Source: a virus (lineage: Duplodnaviria; Heunggongvirae; Uroviricota; Caudoviricetes). From it: a stretch of 18,164 bases of DNA. Position numbers and translations under genes: made by a program. Positions 9,595-18,164 of the stretch are shown here, in pieces; within the stretch, counting starts at the first letter, position 1, and each line of letters begins with the position of its first letter. The notes below the pieces were generated by a model that saw only the letters and a program-made list of their open reading frames with translations, searched no databases and had not been told where the DNA came from. Location: IMG/VR virus record IMGVR_UViG_3300014886_000120; one strand, 5' to 3'.

Positions 9595-10806
9595 CTATCC
9601 AGTCTCATATAGATTGAAGTGCTGCCTCAATATTTCAGCATAGTACCTCATGTTCTTGTACTCTAGAGCTGGATCTGAAAGCTCAGCTTTTACCACTTCA
9701 TATCCTGGCCTTATAGGTATAACAGAGCCTTCATGCCTGCTGCATAGCAACAGAAGTATACCGGTAGGTCTCTGGTGTATGCTCCCATGCCATTTCTGGA
9801 ATCCTCCAGTCTCACTTATCTTTATGCCTTCGAGCTCCAGCTCTGGTGTGAGCCAGTGACAGTGTGCAGTGACTATCCGTTCAACTATCAGTCCCTCTCT
9901 GGAATACTCACTAATGGTCTTCCATAAATCTCTAATTAGCTGGTAAGAGACAGGATAGTAGCTTGATCCTCCATATCCATGAGTGAACATTACATTGTAG
10001 TGCCCAATAGGCTCAGCTATGTCAAGTAGCAGATGTTTGCTTGAGTATTTAGCTTTGCTCCCAAGGCATTTCTTGAGGTACAACATAAAGTTTGATTCTT
10101 GACTTTCATGGGTACCCTTTATCAAATAAATACTGGAGACATCTATGCCCTCTTCCTTTATAGACTCTAAGGTCTTCTTCAACACTCTTTCAGCTAAGAA
10201 GACCTGCCAGTGTCCCCTCTGTACCAGGTTCTCAAATATCTGGTACTTGTATACGTCTTTACCAGAAACTATGTCTCCATTACATACCAGGTTGAACCTG
10301 GCTATGTCATAGTTCTTCCTAAGGAATCTAAGCACTCTCTTAAGGTTGTTTATACAGCTCCAGTATGTCTCTGGTAAGTGTGTCTCATGTCCCAGATGCA
10401 AATCAGAAATCACTAAGGTTAGGACAATGTCCTTCTCCCTCTTTTCTAACAGCTCCAGAGGCAAAGGTACTACTATATCCTCTCTGGGAGTGAACTCGTA
10501 TCGTACTGGTTCAACAGTATCCTGTAATGACTTTATCAGGTCATCTAGTGTAAAGGTAGACTCTTCAGGTATAACAGACTCGTCAATCTCAATATTCCCC
10601 AAAGCATTGTTACTTCTCTTGTACAAGTTGGACACTGCAGCTGAAATGGTTCTCCTCTTTATACCAGCCTTCTTCATCCATGAAAGTATAGTTGTTTTGT
10701 TTACCCCAAGAAGCTCAGCTATTTCAGACAGAGACATGCCTCTGTTCCAGTATAGCTCATTTAATGTTTCAGCTAAATCTGGTTTCTTACTATCTCTACT
10801 TCCCAT
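9595..10806 (-). CDS. N-terminal HTH fused to a calcineurin-like metallophosphoesterase
   Basis: HTH: LYWNRGMSLSEIAELLGVNKTTILSWM. MPP motifs: ISDLHLGH, NGDIVSG, KGTHE, FTHG, AHCH. Confidence 0.8.
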   Translation of the reverse strand: MGSRDSKKPDLAETLNELYWNRGMSLSEIAELLGVNKTTILSWMKKAGIKRRTISAAVSNLYKRSNNALGNIEIDESVIPEESTFTLDDLIKSLQDTVEPVRYEFTPREDIVVPLPLELLEKREKDIVLTLVISDLHLGHETHLPETYWSCINNLKRVLRFLRKNYDIARFNLVCNGDIVSGKDVYKYQIFENLVQRGHWQVFLAERVLKKTLESIKEEGIDVSSIYLIKGTHESQESNFMLYLKKCLGSKAKYSSKHLLLDIAEPIGHYNVMFTHGYGGSSYYPVSYQLIRDLWKTISEYSREGLIVERIVTAHCHWLTPELELEGIKISETGGFQKWHGSIHQRPTGILLLLCSRHEGSVIPIRPGYEVVKAELSDPALEYKNMRYYAEILRQHFNLYETG

Positions 10807-14930: not shown

Positions 14931-16331
14931 CTAAGACAGTTCTTCAGATACCCTTTCACTTACCTCTTCAGCTATGGTGTCTATATCAACATCGGACTTC
15001 GATTTAGGAGAAGAAGGTACTAGGTTAGAATCAGCTTCCCACTTCTTAAGCTCCCTGTCCAGATACTTGGTGGGCAGTCCTAGTTCTTGCCTTAGCTGTT
15101 TCTCAAGCTCTGGATCTCTTCTAATAAGATCCCGTCTTCCAAGTCTGGAAATCAGGTTTATCTTGTTCTCTAGAATATGTGGTACCCTTGTCCTGAAGAC
15201 TATCTTGGGTACCTCCTTAAGGGTCTTGACCATACCCCTGGCCTTCAACAGCCTGAACAGTAGCTTCTCTCTCACCTGTTCAGCCAGTCTGTCCTGCATG
15301 GCCATTATTCTCTGCTCAAAGTCTACCTCCATGCTCTCACTGGCTCTAGCTGTCACTCTGGAGAGAGGTATAAAGTGTCTAGTAACTGGGAACCCCATAC
15401 CAAGGCTCTGGACAGAAGCAAAGTACATTATGAGGTCTGTCCTGTCTCTAAGATCAGGGGTTGGGAACCTCTCTATCTTGACATAGCTTGGGAAAACAAA
15501 GATGGTCCTTGTAGTTACATTTTGTAAGTCCCTAGCTAGCTCTTTTAGCTTCTTTGTTGGTACTTCTCCAATGCCTTCCACATCAACATATCCTATGACA
15601 CCTCCAGCCCTGAATCCAGACTCACCAACATTGTCTTCCAGGTTAAGCCTGATAAGAGCCTGTTTATAGCAGCTTGCTAGGGGAGTCATCCCAAGGTATG
15701 AACCACCTATACTGAATAGCTTGAAGTGGGCTATCCTGTCCCTTCCATCCTCGTCAGCTCTCTGACGTTTCCATACTTCTTCACCAGCCACTATGATCTT
15801 GTCCCTTGTCCACATTATTTCTGCACCATGTGTTCCAGTTCTCTTTTTAACATAGCCTACGGGGTCTCCGTACTCATCAAGCTTCACATTGTTCGAGCTG
15901 TCCCTGATATAATCCATGTAGTTGGGGTTTAGTATCCTTAAGCTAGCTATGTCCCTTCCATCCTCAGTGTATCCGAGCTCAACCCATGCATTTCCTGAAC
16001 CTCCTACAAATATGTCCTTTATAACCTCCTCAAGTATACGTTTCAGCCTTACAGTGTCACACCACTCCTCACATATGTCAATGAGCTCTTGTTTACCCTT
16101 GAAATAGAATCCTGGAGCTACCACAAAGTCCACATAATCATACACTTCCCGTATCGTCAGTCCATCAGAGTATAATAGTTGTTCAAGCTGTTTGCTTGAC
16201 ACAGTAGACTTTATCCTCTCCTCCAGACTGGCCCACATTTTAGCTCTGGTCTTCATGGGGACAGAGTATGACATAGAGAGCTCCTCTGTTGAAGTACGAC
16301 GTTGAGGAGCTCTTCTACGGATTATCCTCAT
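14931..16331 (-). CDS. Phage portal protein
   Basis: 466 aa with portal-like segments in the expected order: GNAWVELGY...LRILNP, IAHFK...YLGMTPL, GMGFP, EQVREKLL...PKIVF, LRQELGLP; SD GAGGT. Confidence 0.75.
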   Translation of the reverse strand: MRIIRRRAPQRRTSTEELSMSYSVPMKTRAKMWASLEERIKSTVSSKQLEQLLYSDGLTIREVYDYVDFVVAPGFYFKGKQELIDICEEWCDTVRLKRILEEVIKDIFVGGSGNAWVELGYTEDGRDIASLRILNPNYMDYIRDSSNNVKLDEYGDPVGYVKKRTGTHGAEIMWTRDKIIVAGEEVWKRQRADEDGRDRIAHFKLFSIGGSYLGMTPLASCYKQALIRLNLEDNVGESGFRAGGVIGYVDVEGIGEVPTKKLKELARDLQNVTTRTIFVFPSYVKIERFPTPDLRDRTDLIMYFASVQSLGMGFPVTRHFIPLSRVTARASESMEVDFEQRIMAMQDRLAEQVREKLLFRLLKARGMVKTLKEVPKIVFRTRVPHILENKINLISRLGRRDLIRRDPELEKQLRQELGLPTKYLDRELKKWEADSNLVPSSPKSKSDVDIDTIAEEVSERVSEELS

Positions 16332-16342
16332 TTCTCTCTACC

Positions 16343-16561
16343 TCACTCTTTCGATAGCTTCAGTATCCCAGTTACTATAGCATCCGACAGTACAAGCTGG
16401 ACAAATGTGTCCTCAGAAATACTGCCCATGCCTCTCAGGAAGGCTAGCACCATGAAGATGATGAGGAATATCACTAGAGGGGCACTGGTTCTGCTTATTG
16501 CCTCCACAATCATATCAGCTTTTGTCTTCTCTACAATCTCTTCTTCAGACAAGCTTTTCAC
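16343..16561 (-). CDS. Small membrane protein (about 70 aa, one clear and one probable TM segment)
   Basis: Hydrophobic LVIFLIIFMVLAFL and FVQLVLSDAIVTGILKL; charged N-terminus; start GTG 16561 or TTG 16552. Confidence 0.7.
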   Translation of the reverse strand: MKSLSEEEIVEKTKADMIVEAISRTSAPLVIFLIIFMVLAFLRGMGSISEDTFVQLVLSDAIVTGILKLSKE

Positions 16562-16601: not shown

Positions 16602-18164
16602 TCAGTATGTGACTATTTCTACCCTTCCTTCCTTCTCTATGTACTCCCATTTACAGTAGAGCATGTCTCCTTCATCACTACCTGCAAACAGAGCTCCATG
16701 ATATCGTAGGTTTCCTATTCCATCCTTGCTTACTACTGGGGAACCACTGTCTCCTCCAGCACATTTGACCCTACACAGTACTACATCCTCGTAATAGGCT
16801 AGACCTCTACTTCCCTGGACATAACCGTTCCAGCTGGGATCTTCTATAGGTCCACTGGTAACCCCAGTAGTTCTCCCACTCTTGTAGACTTCTATACCTC
16901 GTTTATGTTCTCCCTTACCTACTATTCTTCCCTCTATTCCAAGAATGGAGTATGAGATTTCATCTGGATCTAGAGGTATACCAAAGCAAATATCAGCATG
17001 GTTAACAGCCTGATAAGTCCTGAAGTGTGTAGCTGCAAAAAGCAGCTTGTAAAGCTTGAACAGTATCCTCTTGTATAAGGAAGAGTATGAAGTAAACTTG
17101 GTTGGTACATTGTAGACATACTTGGCAATGGCATCACTCTCTTTACCTCCATCGTACGGGCTGGGTTGTATCCATAGCTCTCCCTTCTTAGCTTTATTTT
17201 CCCTACTTCCACAGTTTCCTGCCCATACTCCACATCCTTTTTCTCGTATAAATAAAGTATGATTCATGGGCAAAGTCACATCATACACAAAGCCTGAATA
17301 AGGATACTCTGTTATTGAACTTACCAGTGGGTCTATTGTCTTTAGGAATCTAACTCTGTACAGCACACTCTCTTTTCCCTTTGAGAAGTTGGTTATCCTA
17401 GATTCTCGTTTAATCAAAGTGGGGATTCCAAGCTTTAATGCTACCTCACAAACATCATTTGCTAAGCGTCTGGATGAAGTATTAAATCTACCATAGCTAT
17501 CACCATCTCCGTTCCTTAGAGTGTCGAGCAATATCTTGAGCTTAGAAGGTGGAAGCTCTTTGATTGTTGTAGGAATAAACTTCTCTTTAGAATGTACACC
17601 ATAAAGCCTGATATCTTTCAAAAGCTGATGGAAGGATGGATTATTAGATACAATTGCTGATTTACATCTCCATGTTCTTGCTTCCATGCTTTTCATACAC
17701 TTGTAAATTCTCTCATAGTATCTATTTTCTCTTTGTCTAATGCTGACTATTTTTTGACCTATGGAATTTTCACATGCTGAACCCTCTGATAGATACCAAC
17801 CTAGGAGCTCAATGAGCTCTTCACTAAACATATCATTATCTACACCTTTCCATTTGGCAATATTCTTGAACCTTACAGTAGTTGTTTTCCCTTCTGCTAA
17901 TCTCTCTTCAATTTCTTCAATCTTACCTAATTTAAAGTCACCAGCTTTCCGGCTATGGAACGGAGCTTTTGCAAAATAGACTGTGTTCCCTGGTGTCATT
18001 GAAACCTCAAACACCTTAGATTTGACTAATTTCATTGGTCCTCTATAGTAGATCTTATGGAAACGAATAGGCTGCAGATACTCTAAGCTTCCATCAGGAG
18101 CCAACGAGGCAAACCTTTCAGTACCATTTATTTCGTCCCATCTTTTAAAGCCATCTTTAGTTAG
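16602..18164 (-). CDS. Intein-containing trypsin-like (clan PA) serine protease, 5' end outside window
   Basis: Frame is open to the window edge (LTKDGFKRWDEI...). C-extein 16602-17213 has QPSPYDGG, NHAD (Asp), KSGRTTGVT, and GGDSGSP (Ser codon 16746-16748) followed by ALFAGS. Confidence 0.85.
   Translation of the reverse strand, partial: LTKDGFKRWDEINGTERFASLAPDGSLEYLQPIRFHKIYYRGPMKLVKSKVFEVSMTPGNTVYFAKAPFHSRKAGDFKLGKIEEIEERLAEGKTTTVRFKNIAKWKGVDNDMFSEELIELLGWYLSEGSACENSIGQKIVSIRQRENRYYERIYKCMKSMEARTWRCKSAIVSNNPSFHQLLKDIRLYGVHSKEKFIPTTIKELPPSKLKILLDTLRNGDGDSYGRFNTSSRRLANDVCEVALKLGIPTLIKRESRITNFSKGKESVLYRVRFLKTIDPLVSSITEYPYSGFVYDVTLPMNHTLFIREKGCGVWAGNCGSRENKAKKGELWIQPSPYDGGKESDAIAKYVYNVPTKFTSYSSLYKRILFKLYKLLFAATHFRTYQAVNHADICFGIPLDPDEISYSILGIEGRIVGKGEHKRGIEVYKSGRTTGVTSGPIEDPSWNGYVQGSRGLAYYEDVVLCRVKCAGGDSGSPVVSKDGIGNLRYHGALFAGSDEGDMLYCKWEYIEKEGRVEIVTY
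17214..18164 (-). mobile_element. Intein with LAGLIDADG homing endonuclease (N-terminal few residues outside window)
   Basis: LTKDGF follows block A; YYRGPM...MTPGN block-B region; LLGWYLSEGS and LLDTLRNGDG LAGLIDADG motifs; block F YSGFVYDVTLPMNHTLF; C-terminal WAGN followed by Cys+1. Confidence 0.92.

What the first reader, a model, noticed from the sequence alone, without database searches (positions are those of the whole stretch)
16602..18164. Intein inserted at the catalytic His of a viral serine protease: a potentially splicing-gated protease
Seen: the intein ends WAGN (17214-17216) and the extein resumes CGSRENKAKKGELWIQPSPYDGG, with Asp (NHAD) and Ser (GDSGS) downstream. This aligns in register with the H-V-L-A-N-x-N-x-A-x-x-G-D-x-I-x-Q-P-G-x-x-D-G-G pattern of related trypsin-like proteases, so the triad His is predicted to be the residue just before the intein. 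Known: inteins favour conserved active-site motifs but mostly in nucleic-acid enzymes and terminases; proteases are unusual hosts. Inference: the triad assembles only after splicing, so splicing could time protease activation.
Basis: partly seen in the sequence, partly recalled or inferred. Interest (0 to 1): 0.85.

Follow-up and report, generated by a model that had tools for sequence, protein, structure and literature searches.

The report
Homing intein splitting viral serine protease
A mobile, self-excising protein insert (an intein with its own DNA-cutting enzyme) sits exactly between the catalytic histidine and the next cysteine of a trypsin-fold protease gene in an uncultured sediment virus; the intein is genuine and I found no report of this host family, but nothing shows that it regulates the protease.

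Summary
Reading past the window end gave the predicted junction, ...LNNH|C, with the intein's Cys1 eight codons beyond base 18164. The gene (693 codons) is N-extein, a 325-aa LAGLIDADG intein (C166...N490) and C-extein (C491...).

Intein-free homologues (best 70% identical) read NNH-CG without a break. The exteins belong to a very large family related to rice NARROW LEAF 1 (NAL1) and alpha-lytic-type S1 proteases. His165 aligns with NAL1's catalytic His234.

A profile of the intein matches solved inteins, and its model matches the TliVMA, PI-SceI and PI-PfuI folds.

Each of four site-matched intein alleles is sister to an intein-free allele, up to 90% identical. The intein is also more conserved than its exteins, so it is a mobile homing element. 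The family carries inteins at five or more sites around the catalytic His.

Two oddities stand out. This site's intein lineage lacks the block-B His, and the +1 Cys covaries with an N-extein Cys like the S1 Cys42-Cys58 pair.

Splicing-gated regulation remains untested speculation. The scan had already noted protease-hosted inteins on other DNA, including another site in what appears to be this family (same NNHVLAA|S junction).

The parts
17214..18164 (-). Intein, residues 174-490 of the 693-codon ORF. The first 8 intein codons (C166-YPGYTEV) and the whole N-extein lie beyond the window end, at L001:1477-1500 and L001:1027-1476.
   Evidence: Boundaries. A profile of 63 related inteins hits PI-PkoII 2cw7 at E 8e-21 and the Tli/Pho VMA inteins. 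The AF2 model has pLDDT 95.7. Foldseek top hits are TliVMA 7qsu at E 6e-16, PI-SceI and PI-PfuI.
17985..17996 (-). Intein block B, T-P-G-N. The usual His (TxxH) is replaced by Asn.
   Evidence: Translation. The column is His in 67 of 73 related inteins. It is absent in all four related inteins at this insertion site.
17778..17807 (-). First LAGLIDADG motif (LLGWYLSEGS, acidic residue E300).
   Evidence: Glu is conserved in 69 of 72 relatives. The homing-endonuclease domain of the model matches I-DmoI.
17499..17531 (-). Second LAGLIDADG motif (LLDTLRNGDGD, acidic residue D393).
   Evidence: G-D-G is invariant in 72 of 72 relatives. Pfam LAGLIDADG_3 matches nearby at E 2e-4, just below its cut-off.
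17214..17300 (-). Intein blocks F and G (YSGFVYDV...NHTLFI...GVWAGN). The terminal Asn490 codon is 17214-17216, and the penultimate residue is Gly, not His.
   Evidence: Terminal Asn is found in 73 of 73 relatives, and penultimate Gly in 58 of 73, so Gly is the norm for this intein family.
17211..17213 (-). Cys491, the +1 nucleophile. It is a native residue of the protease (NNH-C) and corresponds to chymotrypsin Cys58.
   Evidence: Intein-free homologues read NNHC without a break. The residue covaries with the N-extein Cys of T-A-C-T: C/C 56, G/V 190, G/I 13, A/V 3, N/V 1, one G/C and two rows with a gap.
16605..17213 (-). C-extein (203 aa), the second part of the trypsin-fold protease, with Asp564 (16992-16994) and Ser646 in GDSGS (16746-16748). 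The stop codon is 16602-16604.
   Evidence: D564 and GDSGS are invariant in alignment A1. The family profile hits NAL1 8hau at E 1.4e-13 and alpha-lytic/streptogrisin proteases.
16343..16561 (-). 72-aa predicted membrane protein, directly downstream and conserved next to the protease in related viruses.
   Evidence: tblastn hits in L002-L005 directly after the protease gene.
14931..16331 (-). 466-aa portal-like protein. It is the next gene in the conserved run protease, small membrane protein, this gene, then NrdD.
   Evidence: PHROG portal families give weak hits (E 2.5e-5). The synteny is seen in L002-L005 and L008.

Best explanation
This is a class-1 intein (Cys1 ... Asn | Cys+1) of 325 aa carrying a LAGLIDADG homing endonuclease. 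It is inserted between the catalytic His and the following Cys of a NAL1-like, trypsin-fold serine protease of an uncultured virus. After translation the intein most likely excises itself and joins ...LNNH to CGSRENK..., restoring an ordinary protease of about 353 aa with a His165/Asp564/Ser646 triad. At the DNA level its endonuclease cuts intein-free alleles at the conserved AAY-AAY-CAY|TGY-GG site and copies the element in. That explains why it sits on the most constrained codons of the gene. The precursor is almost certainly inactive, but this is a by-product of where a selfish element can survive, not a demonstrated control device. What is shown: the anatomy, the fold, the exact insertion, the presence/absence polymorphism and the signs of lateral movement. 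What is inferred: that splicing occurs, that the endonuclease is active and that the precursor is inactive.
For: Junctions: NNH165|C166 and N490|C491.

Intein-free homologues: they are contiguous across the site, the best being P0004 at 70% identity. Profile positions abut at the junction.

Intein identity: 72 non-redundant relatives in unrelated host proteins all run C1 ... N | C/S/T. The profile matches solved inteins. The model (pLDDT 95.7) matches TliVMA, PhoVMA, PI-SceI and PI-PfuI, and its endonuclease domain matches I-DmoI. Both LAGLIDADG acidic residues are kept.

Host identity: the model of P0004 (pLDDT 95.3) matches rice NAL1 at E 2e-16, TM 0.65, and then alpha-lytic-type S1 proteases. 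The profile aligns the His with NAL1's ...TNRH-VA. NAL1's triad is H234/D291/S385 (PMC12012508). His occupies that column in 261 of 266 family members.

Mobility: each of four site-matched intein alleles is sister, with support of 98 or more, to an intein-free allele, so the tree needs 4 changes. The extein pairs are 90%, 87%, 70% and 58% identical. The intein is more conserved than its exteins between hosts: 68 vs 53, 54 vs 39 and 51 vs 39%. A second, unrelated intein (28% identity) occupies the same site in P0006. The same virus carries two more inteins.
Against: There is no experimental evidence of splicing. The intein lacks two residues that are usually important, the block-B His (here Asn) and the penultimate His (here Gly). 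Curated models (Pfam Intein_splicing, NCBIfam intein N- and C-terminal models) do not reach threshold on it. The protease fold was modelled on a 70%-identical intein-free homologue, not on the spliced product itself. Mitigating points: penultimate Gly is the norm in this whole intein family. Loss of the block-B His has been shown experimentally to be compensated by large -1 residues, including His (PMC6333167). Four diverged copies at this site keep C1, the block-B Thr, the block-F Asp/His, the terminal Asn and Cys+1, and the host keeps its triad.
Confidence: 0.8

Rival explanations
1. Conditional-splicing switch. Splicing is slow or triggered by redox state, temperature or metals, so the protease is held as a 'splicing zymogen' and released at a set stage of infection. 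The missing block-B His would make the first step depend on the catalytic His at -1. The Cys136/Cys491 pair, or Cys166, could form a redox trap.
For: All four related inteins at this site lack the block-B His, against 2 of 69 elsewhere. Activation of the first step then depends on the -1 side chain in a model intein (PMC6333167). Cys+1 covaries with an N-extein Cys as a disulfide pair would. The insertion separates the catalytic His from the rest of the active site.
Against: The four inteins form one lineage, so the block-B loss may be a single event. Two relatives with -1 Asn or Gly also lack the His, and two relatives with -1 His keep it. Closely related viruses do without the intein (90% and 87% identical alleles; conserved synteny), so it is not needed for the protease's role. 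The distribution is what a homing element gives. The virus encodes an anaerobic ribonucleotide reductase, which suggests a reducing host cytoplasm.
Confidence: 0.1
2. Decayed intein. The element no longer splices, so this copy of the protease is a permanently interrupted, non-functional gene that has not yet accumulated stop codons.
For: The block-B His and the penultimate His are both absent. Curated intein models score below threshold.
Against: The 693-codon frame is intact, and the identical protein was seen on two contigs. The triad and every family-invariant extein residue are kept. Four copies that have diverged to 51-68% identity keep every other splicing residue and both endonuclease acidic residues. 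Penultimate Gly is normal for 58 of 73 members spread over many intact host proteins.
Confidence: 0.07
3. The insert is not an excised element. It is either a permanent endonuclease domain fused into a bifunctional protein, or an assembly artefact.
For: None specific. This is listed only because splicing was not observed directly.
Against: The insert has a Hint fold, with its termini formed by blocks A and G and the exact C...N|C chemistry. The same architecture occurs in independent assemblies and samples (P0003 on 2 contigs, plus P0010, P0125 and P0269). Two sequencing runs from different studies hold the stretch.
Confidence: 0.02

Closest known systems
Endonuclease-bearing class-1 inteins with solved structures: TliVMA/PhoVMA (7qsu, 7qss, 7qst), PI-PkoII (2cw7), PI-SceI (1vde), PI-PfuI (1dq3)
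   Same: Hint splicing domain with a nested LAGLIDADG endonuclease, Cys1, terminal Asn, a +1 nucleophile, and insertion into a highly conserved active-site motif. Profile E values range from 8e-21 to 5e-7. Foldseek E values range from 6e-16 to 7e-10 at TM about 0.55-0.67.
   Different: The host is a protease, not a V-ATPase or a polymerase. Identity is only 11-14% in the structural alignment. The block-B His is replaced by Asn and the penultimate His by Gly.
Published protease-hosted inteins: Chlamydomonas eugametos chloroplast ClpP intein (Wang & Liu 1997) and archaeal LonB inteins (cited in PMC4760082)
   Same: An intein interrupts a serine protease gene.
   Different: ClpP (clan SK) and Lon have unrelated folds, and the Lon inteins are listed under the P-loop ATPase. 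Here the host is a PA-clan, trypsin-fold enzyme. The insertion is at the peptide bond after the catalytic His. I found no paper describing this.
Rice NARROW LEAF 1 (NAL1) protease (7y77, 8hau, 8pmg) and alpha-lytic / streptogrisin S1E proteases
   Same: An N-terminal domain followed by a double beta-barrel protease with His/Asp/Ser in the same order. The profile hit has E 1.4e-13. The fold match has E 2e-16 and covers the whole length. The NAL1_N and Nal1_C Pfam families appear on distant family members.
   Different: Identity to NAL1 is about 16-17%. The hosts are prokaryotic or viral and the substrate is unknown. The viral clade has a Cys pair (T-A-C-T ... H-C) that the bacterial members lack: they have G and V.
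Ssp DnaB / M86 intein block-B His mutants rescued by large -1 residues (Friedel et al. 2019, PMC6333167)
   Same: An intein without the block-B His whose first step can proceed when the -1 extein residue is large, His included. The window's intein has Asn at block B and His at -1.
   Different: That is an engineered mini-intein assayed in vitro. Here the combination is natural and untested, and the association rests on one lineage.

Membership tests
Intein (class 1, Hint superfamily) | In-frame insertion that is exactly absent from otherwise collinear homologues | tested here: met
   Intein-free homologues read NNH-CG without a break. Profile positions abut at the junction.
Intein (class 1, Hint superfamily) | N-terminal nucleophile (Cys/Ser1), C-terminal Asn, and Cys/Ser/Thr at +1 | tested here: met
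   C166, N490 and C491. The same three residues are present in all 72 relatives.
Intein (class 1, Hint superfamily) | Hint fold | tested here: met
   The AF2 model has pLDDT 95.7. Foldseek top hits are solved inteins at E 6e-16 to 7e-10. The profile-to-PDB search hits inteins.
Intein (class 1, Hint superfamily) | Block-B TxxH histidine and penultimate (block-G) histidine. These are typical accelerating residues; natural inteins without them are documented, so they are not strictly defining. | tested here: not met
   The window has TPGN and A-G-N. His is at block B in 67 of 73 relatives. Penultimate Gly is found in 58 of 73, so it is the family norm. Compensation by large -1 residues is shown in PMC6333167.
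Intein (class 1, Hint superfamily) | Protein splicing actually occurs | not testable with these tools
   This needs expression of the precursor or proteomics.
Intein (class 1, Hint superfamily) | Match to curated intein models (Pfam PF14890, TIGR01443/TIGR01445) | tested here: not met
   No hit on the window's protein. P0010 scores 15.5 bits against a 15.6-bit cut-off for intein_Cterm. This is a sensitivity limit of the models, not evidence against membership.
LAGLIDADG homing endonuclease | Two LAGLIDADG helices, each ending in an acidic catalytic residue, within an I-DmoI-like fold | tested here: met
   The motifs are ...SEGS (E300) and ...GDGD (D393). I-DmoI structures match the middle of the model. 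Pfam LAGLIDADG_3 scores 22.1 bits against a 22.5-bit cut-off. DNA cleavage was not tested.
PA-clan (trypsin-fold) serine protease, NAL1-like family | Double beta-barrel fold | tested here: met
   Tested on the 70%-identical intein-free homologue P0004: pLDDT 95.3, NAL1 at E 2e-16 and alpha-lytic protease at E 2e-9. The window's own spliced product was not modelled.
PA-clan (trypsin-fold) serine protease, NAL1-like family | His, Asp, Ser catalytic triad in that order, within conserved motifs | tested here: met
   H165 (NNH), D564 (NHAD) and S646 (GDSGS). D and GDSGS are invariant and H is near-invariant. The His aligns with NAL1's catalytic His.
PA-clan (trypsin-fold) serine protease, NAL1-like family | NAL1_N-type N-terminal domain (PF25608) | tested here: inconclusive
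   There is no Pfam hit on the window's N-extein. Distant homologues give hits (P0060 E 1.2e-5, P0058 E 1.6e-4). The fold match to NAL1 spans the whole model.
PA-clan (trypsin-fold) serine protease, NAL1-like family | Proteolytic activity and substrate | not testable with these tools
   PHROG 20754 is annotated 'protease' (E 6e-23 on P0004), but that is only an annotation.

The most novel reading that the evidence does not exclude
The intein has been co-opted as a 'splicing zymogen'. In this lineage the loss of the block-B His makes the first splicing step depend on the protease's own catalytic His at -1. The +1 Cys is destined to pair with Cys136 in the mature enzyme and makes the reaction redox-sensitive. 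Protease activity would then be released only under defined conditions during infection.
Probability: 0.1. Interest if true: 0.8.

Novelty: new member of a known kind. Interest (0 to 1): 0.45.

Why it matters
1. It adds a trypsin-fold (PA-clan) protease family to the known intein hosts. The insertion is at the peptide bond after the catalytic His. The family turns out to be invaded at five or more sites around that His, so it is useful for studying what makes a site invadable.

2. It offers a natural test case for a laboratory result: large -1 residues can replace the block-B His.

3. A protease gives an easy activity read-out for the long-running question of whether some inteins act as conditional switches.

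4. On the practical side, curated intein models miss this element. Automatic annotation would call the gene a hypothetical protein or a homing endonuclease.

Tried and rejected
- Pfam and NCBIfam on the precursor, the intein and the separate exteins gave only sub-threshold hits: LAGLIDADG_3, Trypsin_2 and the intein-bearing DnaB/PolII models.
- A single-sequence search of the intein against PDB sequences found nothing. Only the 63-sequence profile worked.
- A composite alignment for folding the whole precursor (A4) placed the excised inteins on extein columns and was dropped. I folded the intein alone instead. The precursor and the spliced product were therefore not modelled.
- A search for a conserved functional neighbour of the protease across 67 viral loci found no universal partner. 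Contexts are clade-specific and mostly DNA-metabolism or unknown genes, so the protease's substrate stays unknown.
- Canonical head-protease (PF04586) and HK97 capsid (PF05065) models found nothing in this 70%-complete record. This is uninformative.
- Literature searches for an intein in a trypsin-like, S1 or NAL1 protease found none. The supplementary tables of PMC4760082 are not held.
- No RNA holder was listed among the sequencing runs.
- dN/dS was not attempted because divergence of 51-68% would be saturated.
- The Cys136-Cys491 distance could not be measured because model coordinates are not exposed.

Full report
**1. The observation**

The minus-strand frame 16602-18164 is open to the window's end. 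The window is the minus strand of C1:77043-95206 in a 128-kb IMG/VR virus record estimated to be 70% complete.

Locus L001 continues the frame to 693 codons. The likely start is the TTG at L001:1027, six bases after GGAGGTG.

The N-extein ends ...YLMLNNH165. The next residue, C166 (C-YPGYTEVLT...), opens the insert 24 nt beyond base 18164. The insert ends ...GVWAGN490 (Asn codon 17214-17216) and is followed by C491-GSRENKAKKGELWIQPSPYDGG.

**2. The insert is an intein**

Intein-free homologues of 320-400 aa are numerous. The best, P0004, is 70% identical over the joined exteins and reads ...LNNH-CGG... without a break. A profile of 38 intein-free members matches the precursor as two pieces that abut: profile 4-132 and profile 130-326.

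The 325-aa insert has 72 non-redundant relatives. They sit in sugar epimerases, dCTP deaminases, NrdD, helicases, terminases, papain-like proteases and a subtilase. Every one begins with Cys and ends in Asn followed by Cys, Ser or Thr.

A profile of 63 of them hits solved inteins: PI-PkoII at 8e-21, the Tli/Pho VMA inteins, an NrdHF mini-intein and KlbA. An AlphaFold model (pLDDT 95.7) matches TliVMA, PhoVMA, PI-PkoII, PI-SceI and PI-PfuI. Its middle domain matches I-DmoI.

Both LAGLIDADG motifs keep their acidic residues, E300 and D393.

Curated Pfam and NCBIfam intein models do not reach threshold. Routine annotation would therefore miss the element.

**3. The host is a NAL1-like, trypsin-fold serine protease, and His165 is its catalytic His**

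- The intein-free profile hits rice NARROW LEAF 1 structures at E 1.4e-13, then glutamyl endopeptidase, streptogrisin and alpha-lytic protease.
- The model of P0004 (pLDDT 95.3) matches NAL1 over its full length (E 2e-16, TM 0.65), then alpha-lytic-type S1 proteases.
- Distant members carry Pfam NAL1_N, Nal1_C, Trypsin_2 and Trypsin. PHROG 20754 'protease' matches P0004 at E 6e-23.
- The family is very large: 18,975 representatives at E <= 1e-3.
- The profile aligns the family's ...NNH with NAL1's ...TNRH-VA. NAL1's triad is H234/D291/S385 (PMC12012508).
- His occupies that column in 261 of 266 members. D564 and GDSGS (S646) are invariant.

The intein therefore lies on the peptide bond after the catalytic His. 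In chymotrypsin numbering this is between His57 and residue 58. That mapping rests on my knowledge of the S1 fold, not on a residue-level superposition.

**4. The +1 nucleophile is a native Cys with a likely structural partner**

Across 266 aligned members, the residue after the His and the residue in T-A-x-T covary almost perfectly:

| T-A-x-T residue / residue after His | Members |
|---|---|
| G / V | 190 |
| C / C | 56 |
| G / I | 13 |
| A / V | 3 |
| N / V | 1 |
| G / C (mixed) | 1 |
| gap in one or both columns | 2 |

The spacing (20 residues in short-loop members) equals that of the Cys42-Cys58 'histidine-loop' disulfide of alpha-lytic protease, again from my own knowledge of that enzyme.

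The intein at this site is found only in the Cys-Cys clade, which supplies the nucleophile it needs. The counts are not phylogenetically independent, and the disulfide itself is an inference.

**5. It behaves as a mobile element**

On an extein tree of 46 Cys-Cys members plus outgroups, each of the four intein-bearing alleles at this site is sister, with support of 98 or more, to an intein-free allele. Four gains or losses are required. One further same-site allele, P0125, was left out of the tree by my filter.

The four sister pairs have these extein identities:

| Intein-bearing allele | Intein-free sister | Extein identity |
|---|---|---|
| P0010 | P0008 | 90% |
| P0006 | P0007 | 87% |
| window | P0004 | 70% |
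| P0269 | P0260 | 58% |

Between hosts the intein is more conserved than its exteins: 68 vs 53%, 54 vs 39% and 51 vs 39%. P0006 carries an unrelated intein (28% identity, canonical TPEH and VHN) at the same bond.

Intein-free alleles in related viruses (L002-L010) keep the core AAY-AAY-CAY|TGY-GG. L005 shares 17 contiguous bases with the window's joined flanks.

The same virus has at least two further inteins. One is in a 1044-aa protein and one is in a 1575-aa metallo-beta-lactamase/ATP-dependent ligase protein.

**6. The family is a repeated intein host**

The best 150 representatives and the word-based hits show at least five insertion points. All lie in the first barrel around the catalytic His.

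| Insertion point | Examples |
|---|---|
| G-H-x \| S-x-T-A-G-T | P0058, P0244, P0252, P0270 |
| T-A-G \| S-L-G | P0129 |
| N-N-H \| C | window, P0010, P0125, P0269, P0006 |
| N-N-H-V-L-A-N/A \| S | P0234, P0256, P0270 |
| Q-P-G \| S-Y-D-G-G | P0131 |

P0270 carries two inteins in one protease.

**7. Non-canonical splicing residues**

Penultimate Gly (S/A-G-N) is the norm of this intein family, in 58 of 73 members.

The block-B His is present in 67 of 73. It is missing from all four related inteins at the N-N-H|C site (TPGN, TPGN, TPGQ, TSHQ) and from two others whose -1 residues are Asn and Gly. Two relatives with His at -1 keep it.

[quoted passage not shown] The window may hold a natural instance, but the association here rests on one lineage.

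The four copies still share Cys1, the block-B Thr, the block-F V-Y-D and N-H, the terminal Asn and Cys+1. Their hosts keep the triad. This argues that splicing is maintained.

**8. Context and function of the protease**

The run protease, 72-aa membrane protein, portal-like protein and then NrdD is conserved in the closest viruses, whose protease genes lack the intein. More distant viral loci show no common neighbour. The substrate is unknown.

Two runs, a sediment and a seawater metagenome from two studies, hold the stretch. Both may be its source.

Earlier notes of this scan call the record an archaeal tailed virus. I did not test that.

**9. Verdict**

The element is a textbook-type homing intein in a host family, and at a bond, for which I found no published report. 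Published protease hosts are chloroplast ClpP and archaeal LonB.

The precursor cannot have a normal active site, so activity follows splicing. Every line of evidence obtained fits a selfish element, and none requires a regulatory role.

The scan has noted protease-hosted inteins on other DNA before, including another site of what appears from its junction motif to be this same family.

Novelty: a new member of a known kind. Interest is moderate, mainly for the multi-site host family, the natural His(-1)/no-block-B-His combination, and a convenient assay system for conditional splicing.

Noticed in passing
L076:1622-4756 (-) and L076:4737-9464 (-), i.e. G000:C1:119121-122255 and 122236-126963: Two more intein-bearing genes in the same virus. 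One is a 1044-aa protein with LAGLIDADG_3, Intein_splicing and a weak LigD_N-like hit. The other is a 1575-aa protein with metallo-beta-lactamase and ATP-dependent DNA ligase domains plus a Hint/Intein_splicing insert at about residues 1023-1344. The record therefore carries at least three inteins in 128 kb.
   Followed up: partly
P0304, P0322, P0331 (papain-like C1A, PF00112) and P0310 (subtilase, PF00082): The same intein family is inserted in cysteine proteases at N-S-W-G|C...C-G-N|S-x-W-G, and in a subtilisin-like protease (|T at +1). Protease hosts are thus recurrent in metagenomic data although hardly reported.
   Followed up: no
P0270 (1051 aa): One NAL1-like protease carries two inteins of this family, at G-H-K|C...C-G-N|S-I-T-A-G-T and at N-N-H-V-L-A-A|C...S-G-N|S-N-D.
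   Followed up: partly
P0178 (1643 aa); L051:5971-9000 (1009-aa ORF): Very long family members. P0178 gives five significant matched stretches that look like repeated or partial protease domains. The L051 ORF is three times the normal length. Neither was examined.
   Followed up: no
window 14931-16561 with L002-L005 and L008: The run protease, 72-aa membrane protein, 466-aa portal-like protein and NrdD is conserved in related ~107-114 kb viral contigs. The 'portal' call rests only on PHROG hits at E 2.5e-5.
   Followed up: partly
window 9595-10806 (-), and L005:10967-12220: A 403-aa protein combines an N-terminal helix-turn-helix (PHROG 'HNH endonuclease'-type) segment with a calcineurin-like phosphoesterase/exonuclease domain. 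It is conserved in related viruses.
   Followed up: no
L001:645-1013 (+), just beyond the window end: An RNase H-like gene (PHROG 531, E 1e-13) ends 14 nt before the protease's likely TTG start. Its stop overlaps the longer GTG-started frame. Two small Zn-ribbon-like ORFs lie upstream.
   Followed up: no
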